From an uncultured Candidatus Saccharibacteria bacterium (GTDB taxonomy: Bacteria > Patescibacteriota > Minisyncoccia > Phycocordibacterales > CALRHW01): a DNA stretch of 64,000 nt. Positions within the stretch are counted from its first letter, which is position 1; every line of letters begins with the position of its first letter. Under the pieces are notes generated by a model. It was not told the origin of the DNA, searched no databases, and was given only the letters and a program-made list of their open reading frames with translations. This document shows, piece after piece, positions 2,305 through 48,367 of this stretch. The stretch is taken from the NCBI GenBank assembly GCA_964390845.1, contig CAYMIL010000001.1, positions 102,326 to 166,325 on the forward strand, given 5' to 3'. Made by a program: the position numbers and the translations under genes.

Positions 2305-3702
2305 ATGCTTACACTCTGGAACACACTGACTCGTCAGAAAGAAGAATTTACCCCTCTACACAACCGATTCGTCGGGATGTACAACTGCGGCCCAACGGTC
2401 TACCACTACGCGCACATTGGCAATCTTCGCTCGTATGTTTTTGCGGATACTCTGAAGCGCGCGCTCCTTCTTAATAGATACAAGGTCGGCCAAGTCATCA
2501 ATATCACGGATGTCGGCCACCTCACCGGAGACAGCGATGTTGGACTCGACAAAATAGAAGAAGGAGCGCGCGCCGAAAAAAAGACCGCGACCGAAATCGC
2601 GAGTTTCTATACACACGCATTCCTCGAAGATCTCAAACAACTTAACATCGATACTCGTGGTACTCGTTTTCCACGGGCGACAGCACACATCAAAGAACAG
2701 ATCGAGTTGATTGAGCGTCTGGAAAAGCGTGGGTACACGTACAGAACATCCGACGGCATTTACTTTGACACACAGCGTTTCCCGCACTACGGCAAACTCG
2801 GCAATATCAACCTCGCCCATCTCAAGGAAGGGGCGCGCATCACGATAAACTCTGAGAAAAAACACATGACAGATTTTGCCCTGTGGAAGTTTTCTCAACC
2901 CCACGAAAAACGTCAACAGGAATGGGAGTCACCGTGGGGTGTCGGTTTCCCAGGCTGGCACATCGAGTGTTCTGCTATGGCGATGAAATATCTCGGAGAA
3001 ACCTTTGATATTCACACTGGCGGCATCGACCACATCCCCGTTCATCACAACAACGAAATCGCGCAATCAGAAAGCGCGACAGGTACACAGTATGCACGCT
3101 TTTGGCTTCACAACGCATTTGTACAAATAGATGGGCAGAAAATGGCGAAGTCCGAAGGAAACTTTTTGAGACTCGACGATCTGCGTGAACACGCTATCAA
3201 CCCGCTGAGTTATCGATACTGGCTACTTACAGCTCACTACCGCCAGCCTGTACTTTTTTCATGGGAAGCACTTGGCGCGGCAGACACCGCGCTCCGCAAA
3301 CTTGCGGAAACCTTTAGTACCCTTCCGCGACTCGGATCAGTACACAGTGAGTACATGTCGCGCTTCACAGCGCTCATCAACGACGACCTCAATACCCCAG
3401 GTGCTATCGCACTCATGTGGGAGATGCTCAAAGATAAAACACTTACGCAACGAGCAAAACGTGCAACCCTTGCAGAGTTCGACAAAACACTGGGCCTCAA
3501 CCTCGCTTCTCTTGCAAAAGAAATGAAGAAGGCTCAGTCATCTATCCCCGCCCATATCAAAAAACTCGTACAAGAACGACAAGAAGCACGAGAAGCAAAA
3601 GACTGGGAAAAGGCTGATACATTGCGAACTACTATAGAAAAGATGGGCTTTGAGGTCAAAGATACGGAAAAAGGCCAAGAAATTAGGCGTATATCCCTAT
3701 AA
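2305..3702 (+). CDS. cysS: Cysteinyl-tRNA synthetase
   Basis: 465 aa. HIGH motif ([13 protein letters not shown]), KMSKS (KMAKSEGN), and N-terminus [15 protein letters not shown] typical of CysRS. Confidence 0.9.
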
Positions 3703-8229: not shown

Positions 8230-8255
8230 CCCCCAACCCAGGCCTGGGTTGGGGG
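8230..8255. other. Perfect 26-nt GC-rich palindromic hairpin (CCCCCAACCCAGG/CCTGGGTTGGGGG) without a U-tract
   Basis: Seen directly. It could be a terminator for yqeY or the 5' element of the adjacent unassigned RNA-like region. Confidence 0.4.
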
Positions 8256-9627: not shown

Positions 9628-9670
9628 TGCCCCATATGATACCCTATTTTAACGAAATGTCAAACACAAC

Positions 9671-9700
9671 AAAAAACCACCCGCGCGGGTGGTTTTTTGT
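9671..9700. terminator. Bidirectional Rho-independent terminator
   Basis: AAAAAACCACCCGCGCGGGTGGTTTTTT perfect hairpin flanked by A and T runs, immediately 3' of the tRNA. Confidence 0.7.
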
Positions 9701-24445: not shown

Positions 24446-25156
24446 CTATTCGCGAGTGCGTGAGCGGGCGCTTATGTTGGGTAGTGTAAGTGAGAGATGT
24501 TCGAGTATCATTTTAACCGACGAAGACTTGTCAGACAGATACCTGCGACACTGTTCAACATCTGCAAGTATCCGCGCGTATGATGCGTCACTACGATCCC
24601 ACAGCGTATACAGATGCCGTAGAAGCGCATCCACTACCCCACGCGCACCCTGTCGGTCTTTTGATTCGACAATATCCTCACACAAAGACAGACGTCGTGC
24701 GGGTGATACAGAAAGAAATTTTTGTACATCAAAGCCCGTCTGCGTCTTGTTTCCATGATGTGCCAACATACAGACGCGAGAATGAACCGTCGGCAACAAC
24801 ATATCTGCAGAAGGTACCAACAAAAAGAAATGTGTCCCCTCGGTCGGCTCCTCAAACACCTTAAGCAGGGCATTTTGCGCCTCCACTGTTATCGCATTAC
24901 ACGAAATCACAAACACCTTCATACCCGCCTCACCAAACGCTCGTTTAAGCTGGAGTTCTTTAAGAAATCTACCGTCATCGATACCAAATGAATCGTACGC
25001 TATACGCACAAAATCTGGGTTGCCTTGCGTGGAGAAACCCACCTGCGCTTCAAAAAAAGCTCGCAGTGCATCGTGAGCACTCTCAATATCACCTTCCACC
25101 ACGTATGCATGATGAAGCGTGCCCGTGTGTGCGTATGCCGTGATCAACTCATTCAT
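24446..25156 (-). CDS. holB: DNA polymerase III delta-prime-like clamp loader subunit (short)
   Basis: 236 aa. HAYVVEG N-terminal motif without intact P-loop, and NALLKVFEEP (the LLKTLEEP clamp-loader motif). Confidence 0.55.
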   Translation of the reverse strand: MNELITAYAHTGTLHHAYVVEGDIESAHDALRAFFEAQVGFSTQGNPDFVRIAYDSFGIDDGRFLKELQLKRAFGEAGMKVFVISCNAITVEAQNALLKVFEEPTEGTHFFLLVPSADMLLPTVHSRVCMLAHHGNKTQTGFDVQKFLSVSPARRLSLCEDIVESKDRQGARGVVDALLRHLYTLWDRSDASYARILADVEQCRRYLSDKSSSVKMILEHLSLTLPNISARSRTRE

Positions 25157-26169
25157 TATCGTTTTGCGATAATACTCTTTTTATAAACATCAAGATGGTC
25201 GAGTGCGATACCAGTACCCTTCACTACACAGTAGAGTGCGTCTTCGGCCAATGTTGCCTTTACACCCGTGCGGCGATAGATCAAATCGGGAAGGTTTCGT
25301 AGCTGTGATGAGCCACCTGTCATGATAATGCCATTGTCAATAATATCTGAGGCAAGCTCTGGTGGCGTGTCCTGAAATACATCTTTAATCGCCTTTACCA
25401 TTTCACGAAGTTCTTTACTAATAGCCTTTACGACCTCGTTTGTCTTTATTTCAACTGAGCGCGGTAAGCCGGTTACAAAATCGCGACCCTTAATAGTGAT
25501 AGCGAGCTCTTCATCAAGAGGAATCGCTGAACCAACTTTTATTTTTATATCTTCTGCTGTTTTGTCGCCAATACCGAGATTGTATTGCTTCTTTATGTAA
25601 TCAGTAATTGCATAGTCTATCTTGTTGCCCGCGCACTTCACAGATGTCGCCGCAACAATACCGCCAAGTGAGATGACGGCAACATCCGTGGTGCCGCCAC
25701 CGATATCAACAATCATGTGTCCCATTGCCTCATGGATCGGAATACCGGCGCCAATCGCCGCAAGAATAGGCTCCTTCACAACATACGCATTTTTTGCGCC
25801 AGCACGAACAGCCGCCTCCACAACAGCACGGCGCTCTGTCGAAGTAACACCCGCCGGCACAGAGACAAGTACTTCAGGCTTTGAGATATTCCATTTTCCA
25901 AGCGCTTTGTTGATGTAATAGCGAAGCATTGCTTCGGTGACACGATAATCCGCAATAACACCATCGCGCATTGGTCGATATGCGATGATACTGTCTGGTG
26001 TACGACCAATCATGCTTTTTGCCTCAAGACCGATTGCCATGATTCGGTTATCTTCTTCGGACACCGCGACCACAGAAGGTTCGTTGAGAACAATGCCTTG
26101 CCCAGGCACATATACAAGTGTGCTTGTCGTTCCCAAATCAATACCAAGTTTTTTAGAGAAAAACCCCAT
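25156..26169 (-). CDS. MreB-like actin homolog, second paralog (Mbl-like)
   Basis: Start at the internal Met (MGFFSKKLGIDLGTTSTLVYV), which has an AGGTG RBS. DIGGGTTD motif. The 120-aa N-terminal extension of the raw ORF is rejected. Confidence 0.85.
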   Translation of the reverse strand: MGFFSKKLGIDLGTTSTLVYVPGQGIVLNEPSVVAVSEEDNRIMAIGLEAKSMIGRTPDSIIAYRPMRDGVIADYRVTEAMLRYYINKALGKWNISKPEVLVSVPAGVTSTERRAVVEAAVRAGAKNAYVVKEPILAAIGAGIPIHEAMGHMIVDIGGGTTDVAVISLGGIVAATSVKCAGNKIDYAITDYIKKQYNLGIGDKTAEDIKIKVGSAIPLDEELAITIKGRDFVTGLPRSVEIKTNEVVKAISKELREMVKAIKDVFQDTPPELASDIIDNGIIMTGGSSQLRNLPDLIYRRTGVKATLAEDALYCVVKGTGIALDHLDVYKKSIIAKR

Positions 26170-26229
26170 AGGTGCACCTATCATACGGCCTTTTGTGCCG
26201 AGACACAACACTATCCACAGTTTGAATAT

Positions 26230-26249
26230 ATATAGCATATATGCTATAT
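26230..26249. promoter_or_regulatory. Perfect 20-bp AT-rich palindrome (ATATAGCATATATGCTATAT) in the divergent intergenic region, candidate operator
   Basis: Seen directly. Lies 30 bp upstream of a gene whose product begins with an XRE-type HTH domain. Confidence 0.45.
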
Positions 26250-26280
26250 TACTATCCATTACATAGTAGTCGTATACGCC

Positions 26281-27813
26281 ATGGCACAACGCGCACCAAA
26301 GCCACAAACGGGTTCCGCATCTATTGGAAAAATGATACAGACACTGCGAGAAAAACGTGGTATCACCCAAGAGGAGTTTGCAAAACAGCTCAACACCACT
26401 CAGAGCGCTATTGCGCGCATCGAAAAAGGTGAGCAGAACCTTACGACAGAAATGATTGCAAAAATTAGCAAGGTACTCAACCACGATCTTGTGCGTGTTT
26501 CTACGGGCGCGATCAATGTTGAGATTCATGGTGGCAAACCACTCTCTGGAACCATCGTTACCAAAACATCAAAAAATGGAGCGATGGGTCTTTTGTGCGC
26601 CTCTCTTCTCAACAAAAACACGACACTCCTTAAGAATGTTCCGAAAATTGAAGAAGTGCACCGCATGATAGAAGTCTTTCAGAGTATCGGCGTTCATGTC
26701 GCGTGGAAAGGTAATGACGTAGAAATCAAACCACCAGCAAAACTTTCACTCTCTTCTATCAATGTTGCGGCGGCAGAAAAGACCCGAAGCATCATCATGC
26801 TCATTGGTCCCCTTATTCACCTTCTACAGTCCTTTTCTCTCCCCCAGCCTGGCGGTTGCAAACTCGGCTCTCGTACTGTCCGTCCACATTTTTTTGCACT
26901 CGAAAAACTTGGCGTAAAGATAAAAACCACATCAGATGCATACGAGGTAAAAGCATCAAAGCTCAAAGCACACGATATTGTGCTCTATGAAAGTGGCGAC
27001 ACCGTCACCGAAAACGTACTCATGGCTGCTGCACGCACAGAAGGCACAACAACGATAAAATTTGCTTCAGCAAACTATATGGGGCAAGAACTCTGCTTTT
27101 TCCTTGAAAAACTTGGTGTAACCGTAGAAGGTATTGGCACCACTACGCTTGTAGTACATGGTAAAAAAAATATCGATGTCCCTGTTACCTACTACCTCAG
27201 CGAAGATCCGATCGAATCAATGTTCTTTATCGCTGTCGCAATCGTTACAAACTCTTCTATTACTATTGAGCGTTGCCCTATCGATTTCCTCGAAATTGAA
27301 TTGCTCAAGCTTGAAAAAATGGGCTTCAAGTACAAAATTCTCAAGCGATATAAAGCGGACAACGGACACACCAATCTTGTCGACATCAAAACCCTACCAT
27401 CAAAACTAAAAGCACTCGAAGAAAAAATCGAATGCCGGCCCTATCCAGGTCTCAATATAGACAACTTGCCATTCTTCGCGGTCATCGCAACACAAGCAAA
27501 AGGAACAACCTTCCTTCACGACTGGGTATACGAAAAGCGCGCGATTCACTACAAAGAGCTCGACAAGCTCGGTGCCGACACACTCCTTGCCGACCCGCAC
27601 CGTATGTACATCACCGGCCCCACAAAGCTCAAGCCTGCAGAAATCATCTGTCCACCAGCCCTCCGCCCTGCAGCTATCATTCTTATTGGTATGCTTGGAG
27701 CACACGGACGCTCTGTTCTTCGCAACATCTACAGTATCAACCGTGGCTACGAAGACATCATTGCTCGCCTTGAAAGTATCGGTGCGGATATCAAGATATT
27801 GCGAGAGCTGTAA
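26281..27813 (+). CDS. murA: Fusion protein: N-terminal XRE-family HTH domain + UDP-N-acetylglucosamine 1-carboxyvinyltransferase (MurA)
   Basis: Residues ~15-70 form an HTH_XRE (IQTLREKRGITQEEFAKQLNTTQSAIARIEKGEQN). The remainder aligns along MurA, including catalytic Cys (LPQPGGCKLGSR) and C-terminus IYSINRGYEDIIARLESIGADI. Confidence 0.8.
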   Translation: MAQRAPKPQTGSASIGKMIQTLREKRGITQEEFAKQLNTTQSAIARIEKGEQNLTTEMIAKISKVLNHDLVRVSTGAINVEIHGGKPLSGTIVTKTSKNGAMGLLCASLLNKNTTLLKNVPKIEEVHRMIEVFQSIGVHVAWKGNDVEIKPPAKLSLSSINVAAAEKTRSIIMLIGPLIHLLQSFSLPQPGGCKLGSRTVRPHFFALEKLGVKIKTTSDAYEVKASKLKAHDIVLYESGDTVTENVLMAAARTEGTTTIKFASANYMGQELCFFLEKLGVTVEGIGTTTLVVHGKKNIDVPVTYYLSEDPIESMFFIAVAIVTNSSITIERCPIDFLEIELLKLEKMGFKYKILKRYKADNGHTNLVDIKTLPSKLKALEEKIECRPYPGLNIDNLPFFAVIATQAKGTTFLHDWVYEKRAIHYKELDKLGADTLLADPHRMYITGPTKLKPAEIICPPALRPAAIILIGMLGAHGRSVLRNIYSINRGYEDIIARLESIGADIKILREL

Positions 27814-41740: not shown

Positions 41741-42133
41741 TTATTCTATATTATGAGAAGGATACCTTGTACCTCTTTTTAAGAAATTTTTTTCAATATC
41801 TTTCAGCCCAAACTTTTTATAAAAATAGTTCAGAATCAGCTCAGTATCCATACCATTTTGACATGTATACACATCAGCACTCACAAACCTTCTTTTTGGA
41901 AAAGTGTGAATACTTATGTGACTTTCTGTAAGAGCAATAATACCTGTCCAACCACCAGGATCCTTCTTATTATTTGGTTCAGCTTTATATATCTGGACCT
42001 TAGCTAGGGATTTCATACCGAGGAGGAAAACCAGTTCATTCAATGCGTGCGCCACTAAGTTTTTATCATCGAGGAGTTTTTCTTCCCCTCCATAACCATC
42101 AATTGTGAGATGTTCACCAAAATGCTCTATCAT
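41741..42133 (-). CDS. speH: S-adenosylmethionine decarboxylase proenzyme (small SpeH-type)
   Basis: ESHISIHTFP (self-processing ES|HIS motif; canonical ESHISIHTWPE) and YTCQ. Confidence 0.7.
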   Translation of the reverse strand: MIEHFGEHLTIDGYGGEEKLLDDKNLVAHALNELVFLLGMKSLAKVQIYKAEPNNKKDPGGWTGIIALTESHISIHTFPKRRFVSADVYTCQNGMDTELILNYFYKKFGLKDIEKNFLKRGTRYPSHNIE

Positions 42134-42163
42134 ATATGATATATTAGTGCCAACTAAAGCTCT

Positions 42164-42709: not shown

Positions 42710-45700
42710 TTAATCTATTTTCTTAAACCTGCCGGGTGTCAATACTTCATCCTTAATAACTGTTATTATTCTCTTTGTTGCGTTATCGAGAGGAACTAAA
42801 ACTTGGTCTTTATATCTTACCACCTGTTGATATTTCGAATCAAAATATTTCTCCCCGGTCCTGTAGGCATCCATTACCTTCTCCGCGGTAATACCGAACT
42901 TCTCCCGAATTATAATATTGTCTATTCCATGACTTGAGATCTCGATACCTTCTTTGATAAAAGCATCTTTGATAACATTGTATTTTTGCCTGAAATTGAG
43001 ATTGCTGCTACCAAATCCACTTTTCACAAAGTTCGTTGCAGACTCAACACCACCAATAGCAATCTTCTCGGCTCCTCCAGCAATCTTTACTCCAGTCTTC
43101 TTCTCAGCCCCTCCTGGCGTAAGCATCGATCCAACAAACAATGCACCCTCAAGAGATCTGGACCCTCCTTCTTCACCAACATCTGGAGAATATGCGACTT
43201 CTGGCCATAGAAACATTGTAGCAATTGCCGTCCAGAAGTTTCCATCTCGGTCCACATTCACCATTGGGTTGTTTCTCGCATAAGAATAGCTATTGAGTGA
43301 TTGTGGGTCCGCAAGATACATTGGAAGTTCAAGTCCTGTTTTATCTTTCAAATCTTTTGCGTTTCCGACCGCCAAGAATGCAGGATCCACAGATATAAAC
43401 CGCCCAGTGTTTCCCGCGTAGTACCTCGCTCCCATATAATTAAGCCCTGTCTCAGCATCATACTCATGCCCGGTAAACTTTCGCTGTTCGGAGTAGCCGA
43501 GACCGAAATCTAGGCGAGTCGCGCCATACGGATAATAGTCAACTGTCTCTGCTGAAGTACCAGCTGAGTTTGTGATCACGCTTGAACCACCAAGATGATC
43601 GTTGTGAATATACAGAATATCTGGCGTCGATGTACCGTGTGTTTCAATTGTTGCCACGACCTGGTCACCCAAAAACACGTGCGCGGTTGTCGTGGTGCCT
43701 CCAGAACCAGACAAGCCCGAATCATCCGACACCTCAATGTTCCAATATTTATTTGGATACACTGTCGTGTTCCGTCCAAACGCATAGACAACGCGGTCGC
43801 CAGCATGGTCGTAAGAATACGTTGTTGCCGCAGGACCCACAGTGAGCATCGTCGGTCTGTTTTTATAATCCCAGGTACTTGTTGCAATGCCATTGCCCGT
43901 CAGCATATTGCCATTGCGGTCGTATGTCAGTGTTCCCGTAACCGGAGTCGACACTACGGCGTGCGGGTTTGCATACTGACTTTTTACCGACGTGCTTGGA
44001 TACGTATATGTGCCGATATCAGACTTGCTGAGAATGTTGCCGATAGCGTCATAGGTATACGTCTCACGGTACGGCAACGTCGCTGCTGCCGTTGTCGATG
44101 CAGAAAGAAGGCGGTAGAGATTGTCGTAGACATATTCAACCGTACGCTGAATTGTTGTTGTGGCGTTCTCTTTAAGTAAGGTTATGTTTCCAACCTTGTC
44201 ATACGTATACTCAAGATCTTGATACTTCGTACCGCTTGCACCCGACTGCTTTGTTACTTTTTTAGTGAGACGATATAGCTTGTTTGCGTCGTATGTATTC
44301 GTTGCCTCAATTCCGTTTGCGTTTTTCTGGAAACTAACCTTGCCTTCTGGAGAGTAATCAAGGTCATCCACCAACACAGAGAACGACGTCGCACTCGGAA
44401 GCTTCTGTAACACACGCTCTACAAAACCACCGTTGTTGTATTCATACTGTATCTGCAAACCATCTGGATAGGTGATAAGTGTGGGGTTTCCCTGTCGATT
44501 AAATGCATACGCTGTGGTATATGTCGCACCAGATATTGTCCGACCTTCTTGCACCACACGCCCAGCGGTGTCATATGCATATGTGGTTGTTGCTCCCTGT
44601 GTCACAGCCTGGCACAATCTCGTCTTTCCAAATGCGCATGTATCATACGCGTACACAACATCGACACCCGGTGTGCCTGTGAAGTTTTCAGTAAGTGGCC
44701 GATTGATGGCGTCGTAAGTATATTGAATTGTCTGACCCTTTCCATCGACTACCTGCGTTATATTTCCAGCATTATCATAGGAATATGACCATGTAGAAAA
44801 TGAGGTGTCTGCTGGATCATGAAGATCCTGTGCGGTTAGACGGCGACCCAAACCGTCGTAGGTAAAGCTACGAATATTTCCGAGTGCATCGGTAATTTTT
44901 GTGAGTAAATTTAGACCATTATATTCGTAGTATGTGGAATACGTACTCGTGCCATTGTATTCATCAACCCGAATGAGGTTGCCACGAGCATCCTTGTACA
45001 ACTTCCTCTGATTGTTTAGCGGATCTTTTACAAGGACATCCCATCCGTCATATGTTGTTGTGGTGGTACCGAGATAATTTTTTGCAGAAGTCACACGTCC
45101 CAGTGCATCGTATGAAAACTCTTGTCGTAAATTATTATCAACTGGCGTAGAATCATAATCAGAACCATCAGTAACAAAAAATGGCAACGAGTGCTGTTTC
45201 TTCAAACCACGAGAATCGTACCCGATCTTTGTAACCGTGAAAGCGTCTTGGTCACCCTCTGACTGAACACGTTCTTGTATGACACGACCAAAGCCATCGA
45301 AATACGTGTATGTTGGCACAGACATTCCAGCATCAAGATATTGTGTTTTTACTACGCCTGTAGGAAATTGATTATCAAGATATGTATACGAACTTTTTTC
45401 CTCAAGTGTCGATACCAACGATGGACTTGAAACCTTTTCAGACAAGACCCTATCAAGGCCATCATAAACAAACTCTGTTACCTTTCCATTTTCATCAACA
45501 ATTTTTTTAGGTTTTCCAGATGAGTAATCATACTGAAAATCTTTGATGTGACCCACGGAATTGGTCGTCGTTGATGGATACAAACCATATACATCGTAAG
45601 CATATGTTGTGGTTGCTCCAAGGGAATTGATTTCACCAACAATCAGGCCTTTCTCATCGTAAATTGATTGCTCATTTACAAAACCCGATCCACTTTTCCA

Positions 45701-48367
45701 ATTTTCAATCTTTGTCTTATTACCAAACGACACAGAGCCTAATGGGAGACTGTCGTAATAAATCTTACTTTCAGACAATAATCCACTACCAACATCAACA
45801 AGCGACACACGCGAAGGCAGGACGATTCGACCATCTGAACTTGTTGCGTAAAAATATTTTTTAGTAGTTTTATCTGTACCAACATCGGAAAAACCCCCAA
45901 CACCATCACCGATAACTTTTCCCCACTGATCTTCTCTACTAATCGACAAAGCGAGATCGTCATACTCATATGTGGTTGCACGATCAACCGGAGTACCGCC
46001 TTCACCATATTGCCTTTCCAAAAAGGTTGTCAGTTTCAGAAATGACGATGTTGCACTTATTGAGGAATTATGACTATCCCACCTATTTTGAATACTGGAT
46101 AATATATTCCCCTCATTATCATATGTTTCAATAAGATACGGCCTTCCAATCTTTGAATAATTATCCTGAAACTCTCCAGTTGTGAATGACGTTTGATTTC
46201 CTTGGTGAAAATATTTTTTTGTAATATTCCCGATCGGATCTGTCTCAATGATTAATCCGAATCCAGAGACTTTCTTATCATGTGAATCTGCATAATATAG
46301 ATCACCCTCTGTATACACATAAGTAGTAGTTCCAACGCCTCCCACGCCGTCATGAACGGCAATCGAAGACACGGTTATTAGATTTTCTGGAAGGTTCGGA
46401 TTCAACACGCCGCCTACTCCAGTATATTGAGCTGACCCCTTATACGTTACCAATACAGAACCTTTTTGGGGCAATAAATAGTAATGGAGCTTATCCGAAA
46501 CATCTCCGATATGGCGATAAACTTTATTAATTACACCCTCACTCGTGCGTCTACTAATAAGTAAATCCATTAGACCATCCCCGTCTATATCAGCAAAACG
46601 AACGCCCTGATCGGTGTTATTGAAATTAAAAAATTCTGGAATATCCCACGAGGTATCGAGTGTCCAGCCGTGACCGGTGTTTAGATATACTTTTTTAACT
46701 TCGATATATGGATCACCGCCCCTCCAAGCACGAATCAAATCAACAAGTCCATCACTATTTATATCTTCAAATCTTACCCCACCGTCCGTTTGAGATTTGA
46801 AAATTTCTGGAATATCCCACGAGGTATCGAGTGTCCAGCCGTGACCAGTGTTTAGATATACTTTTTTAACCTCGATATATGGATCACCTCCACGCCAACT
46901 TTTTACAATGTCTGGCAACATATCGCCATTTACATCAATCAAATATACACCCCTATCATGCGTATCCTCAACAAAAAACTCTGGCAGACTCCACGAAGTA
47001 TCGAGTGCCCAACCGCTACCAGTATTTAAATACACAACCCTTACATCTTCAGGTGGCTCAGGGTTTCCTAACATTCCGCGCACAATATCTGGCAAACCAT
47101 CCCCATTCACATCAGCAATTCTAGTGCCAGAATCCTTATTGTAATTTATAATAAACTCTTCTGGAACGCTTACAGCAGGATCCTCAACCCAATCACCTTG
47201 AGAGCTTGTATAAGTAAAACTTCTTGCTGGCAACACCACCTCCTGGCTTTCAGATTCAAAACCTTTTTCTACTACCGATCCCAATAAATCTCTCGACTTG
47301 TTATTTCCCTTACTATACGTGAAATCGTAAGCTCTACTTAGAGTAGAACCAACATAAATATTAATTTTGTTAATTCTAAAAGATGTCGTGACTGGAAAAG
47401 AAGTTTTATATGAAATTGTAGATGTTGCCAAATTCTCTTTAAGAAATTCAACTTTGTACAGACCGCTATCTGTTCCATACCCCGTGTATTTTATATATTT
47501 CGGATAAATTTGCCCCCCATCTTTCTCATATTCATATTTTATAAAGTTGCCATTTGCATCTTGAATCGTGTCGACCATCCATCGAAACACATGACTTGTG
47601 GTCGTGGCATCGCCCTGTCGACTTTGTGAGGTTAACCCAAAAGAATACCTTGTACCATTTCTGTCATATACAGTCCATATATTATTAGTTAATTCATATT
47701 TTCCAAAACTACCATCATCTACACGCGGCAAAAATGTGCTCGTAGTAGCGCCCAACGATGCCACAGAAAGCTCTCCCGACATTGATGAGAAAAAATTGTT
47801 TTCTGTATAGATCTTTTCCACACCAGAACGATTAATACGCTCTATGTACGGAACATCAATAGACCAACCGAATCCTACATAACTACCAAGAGTTCCAGAA
47901 TTACTACCGTAAGAAATACGCAATTGTGGATTCATTCCATTTCTACCTGGCGGTATAACAATTGGAATTTCAGTCTGGAAAGATCCATCAATATCAGCTA
48001 CGTTAAATATTTTTATATTTTCTGGAGTTTTAATATATCCCGTTTCGTCCTCAGACGACTGCATAACTAAGCCCCCATCTTCACCACCCTCATCCCGCCC
48101 AGCGCTAGATGTTCCATCGACAGAAAAAATGGGCGTAACATCGCCCATTGCATCTCCACTATTAATTGTCGGTTTTTCTATAGACGAGTCCTTCTTTTCG
48201 GCCCCCTCTCCAGCAGAATCGGATGACGTATCGCCCTCAGAAGAAGATTCTGAATCGCCATCCTGAGATACAGACACCTCAAAAGCGCTCACCATACCAG
48301 CGGGAACAACAAAAGAAATAATGAGGATACTCGTAAGAAAACGTAGTAAAAATGAAGGTTTTTTCAT
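42710..48367 (-). CDS. Secreted RHS/YD-repeat polymorphic toxin with FG-GAP/VCBS-like repeats and variable C-terminal toxin domain
   Basis: 1885 aa. Signal peptide. Four DxNxDGxxD repeats (ADVNGDGLPDIV, IDVNGDMLPDIV, EDINSDGLVDLI, ADIDGDGLMDLL). Dozens of YD repeats (YxYDxxGR). RHS core end (YDAETGLNYMGARYYAGNTGRFISVDP...YARNNPMVNVDRDGN), then an unrelated roughly 240-aa C-terminus. Confidence 0.85.
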   Translation of the reverse strand: MKKPSFLLRFLTSILIISFVVPAGMVSAFEVSVSQDGDSESSSEGDTSSDSAGEGAEKKDSSIEKPTINSGDAMGDVTPIFSVDGTSSAGRDEGGEDGGLVMQSSEDETGYIKTPENIKIFNVADIDGSFQTEIPIVIPPGRNGMNPQLRISYGSNSGTLGSYVGFGWSIDVPYIERINRSGVEKIYTENNFFSSMSGELSVASLGATTSTFLPRVDDGSFGKYELTNNIWTVYDRNGTRYSFGLTSQSRQGDATTTSHVFRWMVDTIQDANGNFIKYEYEKDGGQIYPKYIKYTGYGTDSGLYKVEFLKENLATSTISYKTSFPVTTSFRINKINIYVGSTLSRAYDFTYSKGNNKSRDLLGSVVEKGFESESQEVVLPARSFTYTSSQGDWVEDPAVSVPEEFIINYNKDSGTRIADVNGDGLPDIVRGMLGNPEPPEDVRVVYLNTGSGWALDTSWSLPEFFVEDTHDRGVYLIDVNGDMLPDIVKSWRGGDPYIEVKKVYLNTGHGWTLDTSWDIPEIFKSQTDGGVRFEDINSDGLVDLIRAWRGGDPYIEVKKVYLNTGHGWTLDTSWDIPEFFNFNNTDQGVRFADIDGDGLMDLLISRRTSEGVINKVYRHIGDVSDKLHYYLLPQKGSVLVTYKGSAQYTGVGGVLNPNLPENLITVSSIAVHDGVGGVGTTTYVYTEGDLYYADSHDKKVSGFGLIIETDPIGNITKKYFHQGNQTSFTTGEFQDNYSKIGRPYLIETYDNEGNILSSIQNRWDSHNSSISATSSFLKLTTFLERQYGEGGTPVDRATTYEYDDLALSISREDQWGKVIGDGVGGFSDVGTDKTTKKYFYATSSDGRIVLPSRVSLVDVGSGLLSESKIYYDSLPLGSVSFGNKTKIENWKSGSGFVNEQSIYDEKGLIVGEINSLGATTTYAYDVYGLYPSTTTNSVGHIKDFQYDYSSGKPKKIVDENGKVTEFVYDGLDRVLSEKVSSPSLVSTLEEKSSYTYLDNQFPTGVVKTQYLDAGMSVPTYTYFDGFGRVIQERVQSEGDQDAFTVTKIGYDSRGLKKQHSLPFFVTDGSDYDSTPVDNNLRQEFSYDALGRVTSAKNYLGTTTTTYDGWDVLVKDPLNNQRKLYKDARGNLIRVDEYNGTSTYSTYYEYNGLNLLTKITDALGNIRSFTYDGLGRRLTAQDLHDPADTSFSTWSYSYDNAGNITQVVDGKGQTIQYTYDAINRPLTENFTGTPGVDVVYAYDTCAFGKTRLCQAVTQGATTTYAYDTAGRVVQEGRTISGATYTTAYAFNRQGNPTLITYPDGLQIQYEYNNGGFVERVLQKLPSATSFSVLVDDLDYSPEGKVSFQKNANGIEATNTYDANKLYRLTKKVTKQSGASGTKYQDLEYTYDKVGNITLLKENATTTIQRTVEYVYDNLYRLLSASTTAAATLPYRETYTYDAIGNILSKSDIGTYTYPSTSVKSQYANPHAVVSTPVTGTLTYDRNGNMLTGNGIATSTWDYKNRPTMLTVGPAATTYSYDHAGDRVVYAFGRNTTVYPNKYWNIEVSDDSGLSGSGGTTTTAHVFLGDQVVATIETHGTSTPDILYIHNDHLGGSSVITNSAGTSAETVDYYPYGATRLDFGLGYSEQRKFTGHEYDAETGLNYMGARYYAGNTGRFISVDPAFLAVGNAKDLKDKTGLELPMYLADPQSLNSYSYARNNPMVNVDRDGNFWTAIATMFLWPEVAYSPDVGEEGGSRSLEGALFVGSMLTPGGAEKKTGVKIAGGAEKIAIGGVESATNFVKSGFGSSNLNFRQKYNVIKDAFIKEGIEISSHGIDNIIIREKFGITAEKVMDAYRTGEKYFDSKYQQVVRYKDQVLVPLDNATKRIITVIKDEVLTPGRFKKID

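What the first reader, a model, noticed from the sequence alone, without database searches (positions are those of the whole stretch)
26230..27813. MurA fused to an N-terminal XRE-type HTH domain, with a perfect 20-bp palindrome in its promoter region
The first committed peptidoglycan-synthesis enzyme carries a roughly 70-residue helix-turn-helix domain of the Cro/C1 type at its N-terminus. The catalytic Cys and the MurA C-terminus are intact. Thirty base pairs upstream is a perfect palindrome, ATATAGCATATATGCTATAT, the kind of site XRE dimers bind. This suggests a MurA that binds DNA, perhaps autoregulating or tethered to the nucleoid. It is also a simple feedback link between cell-wall precursor synthesis and transcription.
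Basis: partly seen in the sequence, partly recalled or inferred. Interest (0 to 1): 0.6.

Follow-up and report, generated by a model that had tools for sequence, protein, structure and literature searches.

The report
DNA-binding MurA with its own operator
The enzyme that starts bacterial cell-wall synthesis is here fused to a DNA-binding domain, and a conserved palindromic site on its own promoter matches that domain, so the enzyme very probably switches off its own gene; this looks undescribed but is untested at the bench.

Summary
ORF 26281-27813 encodes a 510-aa protein with an XRE/Cro-C1 HTH (residues 19-67), a short linker and a complete MurA with all catalytic residues. The 20-bp perfect palindrome lies at 26230-26249.

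- **The fusion is real.** All 120 best database homologues carry it, as do 78 of 80 related genomic loci from Patescibacteria (Paceibacteria/Parcubacteria).
- **The palindrome is a conserved operator.** Every fused locus has the 18-bp site TATAGCATA|TATGCTATA or a two-fold-symmetric variant, overlapping an extended -10 promoter (TGnTATAnT). The two HTH-less orthologues lack it.
- **Site and protein co-vary.** Half-site changes match each other (G5:C14 to T5:A14) and match the recognition helix (TTQS to TSQS).
- **Independent support.** The same 18-mer sits upstream of unrelated small XRE genes and Gp49/HigB-like toxin-XRE cassettes whose HTH belongs to the same subfamily.
- **Degenerate relatives.** Distant homologues have lost the MurA catalytic residues but keep the HTH and the site, and lie next to a canonical murA.

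Best explanation: a self-repressing bifunctional "trigger enzyme". Ligand control is inferred only. I found no literature on it. It is a new variant of a known kind, and all evidence is computational.

The parts
26281..27813 (+). HTH-MurA gene (510 aa plus stop codon)
   Evidence: ORF list. Pfam and NCBIfam domain matches. AF2 model has mean pLDDT 90 and pTM 0.84.
26335..26481 (+). XRE/Cro-C1 HTH domain (residues 19-67). The predicted recognition helix T39-T40-Q41-S42-A-I-A-R46-I-E48 is encoded at about 26395-26424.
   Evidence: HTH_3 E 7e-15. AF2 places helices at 11-25, 30-36, 41-48 and 56-66. Q41, S42, R46, E48, G50, Q52 and N53 are invariant across the family, including the catalytically dead relatives.
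26482..26517 (+). Linker (residues 68-79) between the HTH and the first MurA strand
   Evidence: pLDDT is lower here, at 67-80. The segment lies between the two domain matches.
26518..27801 (+). MurA catalytic body (residues 80-507). The catalytic Cys193 codon is at 26857-26859.
   Evidence: NF006873 scores 321 bits against a cutoff of 297. Alignment to solved MurA chains places the Cys loop and the D305 equivalent correctly. Foldseek gives TM about 0.9 to MurA structures. Catalytic columns are intact.
26231..26248 (.). Conserved 18-bp operator core TATAGCATA|TATGCTATA.
   Evidence: The site is unique in the window. It is present upstream of all 78 fused loci and is essentially absent elsewhere in 613 kb. 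Logo; covariation.
26222..26250 (+). Predicted murA promoter: -35 TTGAAT (26222-26227), 17-nt spacer, TG (26242-26243) and -10 TATATT (26245-26250). The operator fills the spacer and most of the -10.
   Evidence: This is the only sigma-70-like hit in 25900-26500 and carries a TG extension. Across 78 distinct upstream sequences, T at site position 20 occurs in 74 and TG at positions 12-13 is near-invariant. A weak TTG lies 17 nt upstream.
25156..26184 (-). Divergent neighbour mreB (start at 26184 or 26169). It may be co-regulated from the shared 96-bp intergenic region.
   Evidence: Pfam MreB_Mbl E 1e-132. mreB is divergent and adjacent in 33 of 78 fused loci but elsewhere or absent in the rest.
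42126..42143 (-). Possible second, weaker site TATATCATATATGATAGA overlapping the start codon of an AdoMet decarboxylase gene (41741..42133, minus strand). Its membership in the system is uncertain.
   Evidence: This is the only other hit scoring 17/18 or better in the window. Sequence; Pfam PF02675. It is the TC/GA variant, not the variant found at this genome's murA site.

Best explanation
**What it is.** This is the housekeeping MurA of a Patescibacteria (Paceibacteria/Parcubacteria) bacterium that has acquired an N-terminal XRE-type DNA-binding domain together with that domain's cognate operator.

**How it most likely works.**
- Two HTH-MurA molecules bind the two half-sites of the 18-bp palindrome TATAGCATA|TATGCTATA.
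- The palindrome occupies the -35/-10 spacer and the extended -10 element of the murA promoter.
- Binding would exclude RNA polymerase, so the enzyme represses its own synthesis (negative autoregulation).
- Where mreB is the divergent neighbour, as in this window, the same site may also affect mreB.

**Shown here (computationally).**
- The fusion, the intact active site and the fold.
- The conserved position-specific site.
- Co-variation of the site with the recognition helix.
- Re-use of the same site by the same HTH subfamily elsewhere.

**Inferred.**
- Actual binding and the dimeric stoichiometry.
- Repression rather than activation.
- Any modulation of binding by MurA ligands (UDP-GlcNAc, PEP, UDP-MurNAc).

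**Likely origin.** An autoregulated XRE gene with its operator was captured in front of murA. That gene was of the kind that serves as antitoxin in Gp49/HigB-like toxin-antitoxin cassettes.
For: 1. **The fusion is conserved.** All 120 top homologues carry PF00275 plus PF01381. 78 of 80 genomic loci are fused. More than 100 clusters at 50% identity span the HTH-MurA junction.
2. **It is the housekeeping murA.** It keeps the mreB/murA/priA synteny shared with the unfused orthologues L036 and L058. All catalytic residues are intact and the fold matches MurA.
3. **The site is specific to these genes.** All 78 fused loci and the window have the site upstream. In 613 kb scanned on both strands, sites scoring 17/18 or better outside those upstream regions number only three places.
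4. **The site goes with the HTH.** L036 has no site. L058 keeps only the right half, which is the -10 element.
5. **The left half is not explained by promoter function.**
   - Positions 1-18 are conserved, and T20 is present in 74 of 78 sequences.
   - The mirror position -1 is not conserved (A in 27 of 78), so the promoter signal is one-sided.
   - Symmetry is just as high in about 20 loci whose upstream ORF is co-directional.
6. **Co-variation within the site and with the protein.**
   - Positions 5 and 14 are G:C in 46 loci, T:A in 20 and mixed in about 13 (Fisher p = 2e-11 on the G/T by C/A table).
   - Position 5 = G goes with TTQS in 49 of 51 loci; position 5 = T goes with TSQS in 23 of 25 (p = 5e-15).
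   - On an NJ tree of the MurA domain the helix residue needs at least 6 changes, mostly concordant with the site.
7. **Independent contexts.**
   - Of 122 exact 18-mers in metagenome contigs, 77 have a same-subfamily HTH gene reading away within 1 kb.
   - Only 2 such HTH hits occur elsewhere in those loci.
   - The neighbours are HTH_3 proteins and Gp49/PF05973 toxins.
8. **Catalytically dead relatives keep the module.** P0171, P0143 and P0207 keep the HTH and a palindrome directly upstream, and lie in mur clusters. In two of the three loci they sit beside a canonical murA.
9. **No competitor in the window.** The only member of this HTH subfamily in the 64-kb window is HTH-MurA itself.
10. 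**Promoter assignment fits the start codons.** In 35 of 77 loci the ATG lies 8-12 nt after the palindrome. That is 6-10 nt after the -10, as expected for a leaderless mRNA from this promoter.
Against: - No experiment exists; binding, stoichiometry and the sign of regulation are all inferred.
- To my knowledge MurA enzymes are monomers in solution, and no dimerisation element was identified. Cooperative binding of two 56-kDa proteins on an 18-bp site is therefore assumed, not shown.
- The right half-site overlaps an extended -10 element, so part of its conservation is promoter conservation.
- The co-variation statistics are not corrected for phylogeny, and the NJ tree is rough.
- The loose site-scoring rule was written after seeing the sites.
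- The exact 18-mer also occurs in contexts with no HTH nearby: 45 of 122 metagenome sites (many at contig ends) and all 10 viral-contig sites.
- A palindrome of this length arises by chance in about 6.5% of simulated windows.
- I could not check whether this genome has a second murA outside the 64-kb window.
Confidence: 0.68

Rival explanations
1. The palindrome is only promoter architecture: two back-to-back extended -10 boxes of a bidirectional mreB/murA promoter. On this view the fused HTH does something else.
For: - The right half plus the flanking bases is a good extended -10 (TGnTATAnT).
- mreB is divergent and adjacent in the window and in 33 of 78 loci.
- The region is AT-rich.
Against: - The mirror of the conserved T20 is not conserved on the left side.
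- The palindrome is equally symmetric in about 20 loci whose upstream ORF is co-directional, and in loci where mreB is downstream or absent.
- Position 14 is the free 'n' of TGnTATAAT, yet it co-varies with position 5 and with the recognition helix.
- Unfused orthologues with the same divergent mreB lack the left half.
- The same site accompanies XRE genes in unrelated contexts.
Confidence: 0.07
2. The site is bound by a separate trans-acting XRE protein, for example a toxin-antitoxin antitoxin of the same subfamily. The HTH fused to MurA either binds elsewhere or merely competes for the site.
For: Stand-alone XRE proteins of the same subfamily use the identical 18-mer in many bacteria. Cross-recognition is therefore chemically plausible.
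Against: - The site is present in 78 of 78 fused loci and lost in the 2 unfused ones.
- It co-varies with the fused domain's own recognition helix.
- No other member of the subfamily is encoded in the 64-kb window, although the rest of the genome was not seen.
Confidence: 0.1
3. The HTH is a protein-protein module like the RodZ HTH that binds MreB. It would tether MurA to the MreB/elongasome, and the palindrome would be unrelated.
For: mreB is the frequent divergent neighbour. To my knowledge the RodZ N-terminal XRE-like HTH binds MreB rather than DNA.
Against: - The Pfam hits are HTH_3, HTH_19 and HTH_31; the RodZ-type HTH_25 model does not appear at E <= 0.01.
- The helix-4 sequence is of the ordinary XRE type.
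- HTH-MurA occurs in many loci with no mreB within 3 kb.
- This idea does not explain the co-varying operator.
- The two functions are not mutually exclusive.
Confidence: 0.05
4. The palindrome acts as an RNA hairpin in the 5' leader or as a DNA cruciform, and the symmetric changes simply preserve base pairing.
For: The change from G5:C14 to T5:A14 preserves pairing.
Against: - The predicted fold of 26220-26285 is no more stable than shuffled sequence (z = 0.35), and there is no Rfam match.
- Every position is conserved in sequence, not only in pairing, including the would-be loop ATAT.
- The -10 element lies inside the palindrome, so most of it is not transcribed from this promoter. In 35 of 77 loci the ATG follows within 8-12 nt.
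- Several loci have non-pairing combinations such as T:C, G:A and G:G.
Confidence: 0.03
5. The fusion is an assembly or frameshift artefact joining two genes.
For: None found.
Against: The same in-frame architecture occurs in hundreds of independent assemblies from NCBI, JGI, ENA and Logan.
Confidence: 0.01

Closest known systems
Bifunctional enzyme-repressors ('trigger enzymes' with a built-in DNA-binding domain): BirA, PutA, NadR (from my own knowledge of the literature)
   Same: One polypeptide carries a metabolic enzyme and a DNA-binding domain. The predicted operator lies on the promoter of its own gene or pathway, so enzyme level and transcription are coupled.
   Different: - The enzyme here is MurA (EPSP-synthase fold) and the DNA-binding domain is an XRE/Cro-C1 HTH. 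BirA and NadR use winged-helix/HTH domains and PutA uses a ribbon-helix-helix.
- Ligand control of DNA binding is established for BirA and PutA but is only conjectured here.
- No MurA of this kind turned up in the searchable literature.
XRE-family antitoxins of Gp49 (HigB/RelE-like) toxin-antitoxin cassettes, and small stand-alone XRE autoregulators
   Same: - The HTH subfamily is the same, with recognition helix T-[TK]-Q-S-x-I-[AS]-R-[IL]-E. The best examples score 75-79 bits against the fused-HTH profile.
- The 18-bp palindrome directly upstream of the gene or operon is identical.
   Different: - No toxin gene lies next to HTH-murA.
- The C-terminal partner is a 430-aa enzyme rather than a short toxin-binding tail.
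- Those proteins are mobile accessory genes found in many phyla, whereas HTH-MurA is a vertically inherited core gene of one radiation.
Canonical MurA (UDP-N-acetylglucosamine 1-carboxyvinyltransferase), e.g. E. coli, E. cloacae, C. jejuni (PDB 1uae, 1naw, 5ujs)
   Same: Two-domain fold (TM about 0.9), the Cys115 loop, and the equivalents of K22, N23, R91, R120, D305 and R397.
   Different: - It carries about 79 extra N-terminal residues comprising the HTH and linker.
- It shares only 24-28% identity with solved MurAs.
- It scores below the TIGR01072 equivalog cutoff (310.8 against 392.7).
- To my knowledge, known MurA control is post-translational (ClpCP/ReoM proteolysis in Firmicutes, UDP-MurNAc feedback), not by a built-in DNA-binding domain.
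434/lambda-type phage repressor N-terminal domains
   Same: Five-helix XRE fold. The recognition helix start GTTQS resembles 434 repressor GTTQQS (recalled, not tested). Both use a palindromic operator with half-sites about one helical turn apart that overlaps a promoter.
   Different: No C-terminal dimerisation/cleavage domain and no relation to lysogeny. The similarity to solved XRE proteins is generic (best PDB E-value 7e-6).

Membership tests
MurA (UDP-N-acetylglucosamine 1-carboxyvinyltransferase) | Sequence match to curated MurA models above their cutoffs | tested here: inconclusive
   NCBIfam subfamily NF006873 scores 321.2 bits against a cutoff of 297, which is met. Equivalog TIGR01072 scores 310.8 against 392.7, and NF009470 scores 215.8 against 552; neither is met. 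Pfam EPSP_synthase scores 170.8 against 22.8.
MurA (UDP-N-acetylglucosamine 1-carboxyvinyltransferase) | Catalytic Cys in the flexible loop, plus equivalents of K22, N23, R91, R120, D305 and R397 | tested here: met
   K98, N99, R169, C193, R198, D394 and R488 are present in the window protein and in all 35 close homologues examined. The loop GGCKLGSRTVRPH aligns to GGCAIGQRPIDLH of 5ujs.
MurA (UDP-N-acetylglucosamine 1-carboxyvinyltransferase) | Two-domain inside-out alpha/beta barrel fold | tested here: met
   The AF2 model has pLDDT 90. Foldseek to MurA structures gives target TM 0.88-0.92 and E down to 1e-40, ahead of NikO and EPSP synthases.
MurA (UDP-N-acetylglucosamine 1-carboxyvinyltransferase) | Enolpyruvyl transfer from PEP to UDP-GlcNAc (enzyme activity) | not testable with these tools
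   This needs an enzyme assay. Indirect support comes from orthologous synteny with unfused murA (mreB/murA/priA) in L036 and L058.
XRE / Cro-C1 helix-turn-helix DNA-binding domain | Match to HTH_3-type models above cutoff, and a helical bundle fold | tested here: met
   HTH_3 scores 55.2 bits against a cutoff of 23, with HTH_19 and HTH_31 also above cutoff. AF2 places helices at 11-25, 30-36, 41-48 and 56-66. PDB relatives are XRE repressors, C-proteins, PezA and HipB.
XRE / Cro-C1 helix-turn-helix DNA-binding domain | Sequence-specific binding to a dyad-symmetric operator | not testable with these tools
   Binding was not measured. The comparative proxy is met: the site is conserved, co-varying and found across contexts.
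Bifunctional enzyme-repressors (trigger enzymes with a DNA-binding domain, BirA/PutA/NadR type) | Enzyme and DNA-binding domain in one polypeptide | tested here: met
Bifunctional enzyme-repressors (trigger enzymes with a DNA-binding domain, BirA/PutA/NadR type) | Operator on the promoter of its own gene or pathway | tested here: met
   The site overlaps the predicted spacer and extended -10 of murA in the window and in 78 relatives. The promoter itself is predicted, not mapped.
Bifunctional enzyme-repressors (trigger enzymes with a DNA-binding domain, BirA/PutA/NadR type) | DNA binding modulated by the enzyme's substrate or product state | not testable with these tools
   No data. Catalytically dead paralogues that keep the HTH and the site hint that the MurA-like body matters for the regulatory role.
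RodZ-type HTH (MreB-binding cytoskeletal adaptor) | Match to the RodZ-type HTH model (Pfam HTH_25), and a transmembrane segment after the HTH | tested here: not met
   HTH_25 is absent from the Pfam hits at E <= 0.01. The HTH is followed by the soluble MurA body with no membrane segment.
Type II toxin-antitoxin antitoxin (XRE antitoxin of Gp49/HigB-like toxins) | Adjacent cognate toxin gene in the same operon | tested here: not met
   The neighbours are mreB and a priA-like gene. No Gp49-like ORF lies next to any fused locus inspected. Only the HTH type and the operator are shared.

The most novel reading that the evidence does not exclude
**Metabolite sensing.** The MurA body may be more than cargo and may act as the sensor of a one-protein feedback loop. 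On this reading the open/closed or ligand-bound state (UDP-GlcNAc, PEP, or the feedback inhibitor UDP-MurNAc) sets how well two HTH-MurA molecules assemble on the operator. Transcription of murA, and of divergent mreB where present, would then track cell-wall precursor supply.

**Dedicated regulators.** The catalytically dead HTH-MurA-like paralogues, found in mur clusters and in two of three loci beside a canonical murA, would be the end point of this trend. They would be dedicated mur-cluster transcription factors that use an EPSP-synthase fold as ligand sensor.

**Crosstalk with toxin-antitoxin systems.** The HTH/operator pair is shared with Gp49/HigB-type toxin-antitoxin cassettes. Antitoxins of that family could therefore cross-regulate cell-wall synthesis.
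Probability: 0.3. Interest if true: 0.8.

Novelty: new variant of a known kind. Interest (0 to 1): 0.66.

Why it matters
**MurA regulation.** MurA catalyses the first committed step of peptidoglycan synthesis and is the target of fosfomycin. To my knowledge its known regulation is post-translational, and no MurA with its own DNA-binding domain has been described.

**A tractable system in an uncultured group.** The fusion is the normal form of the enzyme across a large part of the Patescibacteria (CPR). These are ultra-small, mostly uncultured bacteria with few transcription factors, where almost no regulator-operator pair is known. This work gives a concrete protein, an 18-bp site and a one-residue/one-base-pair specificity change (TTQS with G:C, TSQS with T:A). 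All of these can be tested in vitro or in E. coli without culturing the organism.

**Wider links.**
- It is a natural case of a toxin-antitoxin-type HTH/operator module being recruited to a core biosynthetic gene.
- Relatives in which the enzyme fold has lost catalysis but kept the regulator part offer a route to study how enzymes become transcription factors.

Tried and rejected
- **Frameshift or assembly artefact.** Rejected; the architecture is universal among close homologues.
- **RNA element.** Rejected. The fold is no better than shuffled sequence (z = 0.35) and there is no Rfam match.
- **Bidirectional-promoter explanation of the symmetry.** Rejected as the main cause.
- **RodZ-like HTH.** No HTH_25 match.
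- **Viral-contig scans.** Scans with the class A and class B 18-mers gave 10 and 18 loci. Almost none had a subfamily HTH nearby, so they could not test the TSQS/TC-GA pairing independently.
- **Literature searches.** I searched for the operator sequence, for MurA with HTH/XRE/CPR terms, and for 'trigger enzyme' with MurA. Nothing relevant was found. Absence in this library does not prove absence in subscription journals.
- **PDB sequence search of the HTH.** It returned only generic XRE relatives and no solved close homologue with DNA.
- **Second murA.** None lies in the 64-kb window. The rest of the genome was not available.
- **Other subfamily HTH genes in the window.** None found.
- **Homologue search with the pseudo-enzyme P0171.** It found only three close relatives before running into ordinary HTH-MurA proteins. 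The size and taxonomy of that clade remain unknown.
Full report
**1. The observation**

The window contains one continuous ORF, 26281..27813 (+), encoding 510 aa.
- Pfam finds an XRE/Cro-C1 HTH (HTH_3) at residues 19-67 (E 7e-15). It finds the EPSP-synthase/MurA fold at residues 83-496 (E 5e-50).
- The NCBIfam MurA subfamily model NF006873 matches residues 80-507 with 321 bits against a cutoff of 297. The stricter equivalog TIGR01072 is missed (311 against 393).
- Alignment to solved MurA chains and to 42 homologues shows that the equivalents of E. coli K22, N23, R91, C115, R120, D305, R331, R371 and R397 are all present. The catalytic Cys is C193, codon 26857-26859.
- An AlphaFold2 model built on 43 sequences has pLDDT 90 and pTM 0.84. 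It shows four N-terminal helices, a lower-confidence linker at 67-77 and a MurA body. The only disordered stretch in the body is the Cys loop.
- Foldseek matches the model to MurA structures with target TM of about 0.9.
- The palindrome ATATAGCATATATGCTATAT lies at 26230-26249, 31 nt before the ATG, and is unique in the window even with three mismatches allowed.
- By itself the palindrome is only marginally unlikely. A perfect palindrome of 20 bp or more appears in 13 of 200 Markov-simulated windows.

Its significance has to come from comparison with other genomes.

**2. The fusion is real and is the normal form of MurA in a large clade**

- All 120 best database homologues (69-100% identity, from NCBI, JGI, ENA and Logan) carry PF00275 together with PF01381.
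- A profile-free scan with residues 1-125 found 202 representatives at E <= 1e-10. Of the 150 listed, more than 100 align across the HTH-MurA junction, with identity down to about 40%.
- Of 80 related genomic loci, 78 encode the fusion. Their record titles name Parcubacteria/Paceibacterota and Taylor-, Nomura-, Kaiser-, Lipton-, Harrison- and Doudnabacteria. Some carry generic CPR labels.
- The gene sits in the conserved arrangement mreB (divergent), murA, priA-like. Two orthologues in the same arrangement, L036 and L058, lack the HTH. The fused gene is therefore the housekeeping murA, not an accessory paralogue.
- A frameshift or assembly artefact is excluded.

**3. The palindrome is a conserved, position-specific element tied to the HTH**

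*Presence and specificity*
- Every fused locus has an 18-bp site, TATAGCATA|TATGCTATA or a close variant, upstream of the gene.
- In 613 kb scanned on both strands, sites scoring 17/18 or better outside those upstream regions occur at only three places. These are a second upstream copy in L031, one further upstream in L032, and window 42126.

*Relation to the promoter*
- A logo from 78 distinct upstream sequences shows strong conservation of positions 1-18.
  - T at position 20 occurs in 74 of 78 sequences.
  - With the near-invariant T12-G13, this reads as an extended -10 element, TGnTATAnT.
  - A weak TTG lies 17 nt upstream.
- In the window this is TTGAAT(26222-26227)-17-TATATT(26245-26250), preceded by TG. 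It is the only sigma-70-like hit in the intergenic region.
- In 35 of 77 loci the start codon lies 8-12 nt after the palindrome, which is 6-10 nt after the -10. This is as expected for leaderless transcripts from this promoter.

*The left half is not a promoter feature*
- The left half-site falls in the -35/-10 spacer, where promoters have no sequence requirement, yet it is as conserved as the right half.
- The mirror image of T20 is not conserved (A in 27 of 78 sequences).
- Symmetry is equally high in about 20 loci whose nearest upstream ORF is co-directional. This rests on crude ORF calling.
- The site persists where mreB is downstream or absent.
- The unfused orthologues give a natural control. 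L036 has no site. L058 retains only the right half, which is the -10, while the left half has decayed.

**4. Co-variation**

- Variant sites keep two-fold symmetry. Positions 5 and 14 are G:C in 46 loci, T:A in 20, and mixed in about 13 (Fisher p = 2e-11).
- One locus has the further symmetric change A4:T15 to C4:G15.
- Position 14 is the unconstrained 'n' of the extended -10, so its coupling to position 5 is not a promoter effect.
- The variant also tracks the second residue of the predicted recognition helix.
  - Position 5 = G goes with T-T-Q-S in 49 of 51 loci.
  - Position 5 = T goes with T-S-Q-S in 23 of 25 loci (p = 5e-15).
- These tests ignore shared ancestry. On an NJ tree of the MurA domain alone, the helix residue needs at least 6 changes and the site positions at least 10. 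Several nested switches are concordant: L055/L076, L030/L039 and the L041-L080 clade. This is suggestive, not rigorous.

**5. Independent evidence from unrelated genes**

Only about ten hits were HTH-murA genes.
- Most of the others lie directly upstream of one of two gene types:
  - small (93-101 aa) HTH_3 proteins;
  - Gp49/PF05973 (HigB/RelE-like) toxin genes followed by an HTH_3 gene.
- A profile built from the MurA-fused HTHs finds a member of the same subfamily reading away from 77 of the 122 sites. Only 2 further such hits occur anywhere else in those loci.
- Many of the 45 remaining sites are at contig ends.
- The antitoxin-like proteins of the Gp49 cassettes are the closest. They score 75-79 bits and share the motif TTQSV[IV]ARME.GQQNF.
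- The same protein subfamily and the same DNA site therefore travel together in quite different gene contexts. This is what is expected of a cognate repressor-operator pair.
- It also suggests that murA captured such a module.

**6. Catalytically dead relatives**

- Distant family members keep the HTH almost invariant but have lost the Cys loop and several catalytic residues.
  - These members are P0171, P0271, P0175, P0272, P0143, P0153, P0159, P0207 and P0215, at 30-40% identity.
  - The invariant HTH residues include Q41, S42, R46, E48, G50, Q52 and N53.
- Three were located on contigs.
  - P0171 lies divergent from a canonical unfused murA-murB pair and is followed by a Mur ligase gene (L201).
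  - P0143 lies between Mur ligase genes, with a canonical murA two genes away (L202).
  - P0207 follows murB and a RelA/SpoT-like gene (L203).
- All three have the palindrome directly upstream:
  - TATAACATATATGCTATAct in L201;
  - CATATCATATATGATATA in L202;
  - AATATCAAATATGATATAat in L203.
- Their closest relatives are HTH-MurA proteins, not plain MurA.
- The HTH-operator relationship is thus the most persistent feature of the family. It survives loss of catalysis, which argues that it is functional.
- The clade's size and taxonomy were not established.

**7. Mechanism**

*Best-supported reading*
- HTH-MurA binds the operator as a pair of molecules and blocks RNA polymerase at its own promoter, giving negative autoregulation.
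- This resembles the bifunctional enzyme-repressors BirA, PutA and NadR (my own knowledge).
- In this window the site sits in the middle of the 96-bp mreB-murA intergenic region, so mreB may be affected too. That cannot be general, because mreB is adjacent in only 33 of 78 loci.

*What is shown (computationally)*
- The domain architecture, the intact active site and the fold.
- The site's conservation, position and co-variation.
- The cross-context association of site and HTH subfamily.

*What is inferred*
- Binding itself, the stoichiometry and the sign of regulation.

*What is open*
- Whether MurA ligands modulate binding.
- How two large monomers cooperate on 18 bp.
- Whether the genome has another murA or other subfamily XRE proteins. 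None is in the window.

**8. Rival explanations**

- A bidirectional promoter, a separate trans-acting XRE protein, a RodZ-like MreB-binding HTH and an RNA hairpin were each considered.
- Each is disfavoured by specific results.
- None is formally excluded, and the RodZ-like and trans-factor ideas are compatible with the main one.

**9. Novelty and verdict**

- Searches of the paper library for the operator sequence and for MurA with HTH, XRE, CPR or trigger-enzyme terms found nothing relevant.
- Source databases label these proteins simply as MurA.
- The principle of an autoregulating enzyme with a DNA-binding domain is known. This enzyme, this HTH/operator pair and the pseudo-enzyme derivatives appear undescribed, so I rate it a new variant of a known kind.
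- Interest is moderately high, tempered by the complete lack of experimental data.

Noticed in passing
window 42126-42143 (minus strand), at the start of ORF 41741..42133: A second operator-like palindrome, TATATCATATATGATAGA, scores 17/18 on the loose model and is of the TC/GA variant. It overlaps the ATG of an S-adenosylmethionine decarboxylase gene (Pfam PF02675). It could be a weak second target or chance in AT-rich sequence.
   Followed up: partly
L201 4001-5530, L202 3498-5003, L203 4001-5467 (proteins P0171, P0143, P0207; also P0271, P0175, P0272, P0153, P0159, P0215): These HTH-fused MurA-like proteins have lost the catalytic Cys loop and several active-site residues but keep the HTH and the upstream palindrome. 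They lie inside mur gene clusters, and in L201 and L202 beside a canonical unfused murA. They are candidates for dedicated regulators built on an EPSP-synthase fold.
   Followed up: partly
L081-L200 (metagenome contigs holding the exact 18-mer): The palindrome TATAGCATATATGCTATA lies directly upstream of small XRE genes and of Gp49/HigB-like toxin plus XRE cassettes, often overlapping the ATG. The contigs have 30-60% G+C. I found no paper that holds this operator sequence.
   Followed up: partly
L001-L080, upstream of HTH-murA: The distance from the palindrome to the first in-frame ATG is bimodal. It is 8-12 nt in 35 loci and about 20-39 nt in about 30 loci. The short class implies leaderless murA mRNAs starting at or next to the ATG.
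   Followed up: partly
L036 about 2920-3010 and L058 about 2940-2990: Two orthologues in the same mreB/murA/priA arrangement have no HTH. L036 has no palindrome. L058 keeps only the right half-site, TATGCTATAGT, which is the -10. These look like natural reversions or ancestral states.
   Followed up: yes
window 8230-8255 and 9669-9700: These are the only other long perfect palindromes in the window: CCCCCAACCCAGGCCTGGGTTGGGGG and ACAAAAAACCACCCGCGCGGGTGGTTTTTTGT. The second looks like a bidirectional intrinsic terminator.
   Followed up: no
window 42710..48367 (minus strand): A 1885-aa ORF has an N-terminal signal-like segment, many YD/RHS-like repeats and an RHS-core-type motif (RYYAGNTGRFISVDP) before a distinct C-terminal region. 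It looks like a polymorphic toxin. This was read from the translation only and not searched.
   Followed up: no
L031 about 2677 and about 2759; L038, L064, L065, L067: Some loci carry two copies of the site, or a site 100-130 nt upstream with a second promoter-like element nearer the gene. This suggests more complex control in those lineages.
   Followed up: no
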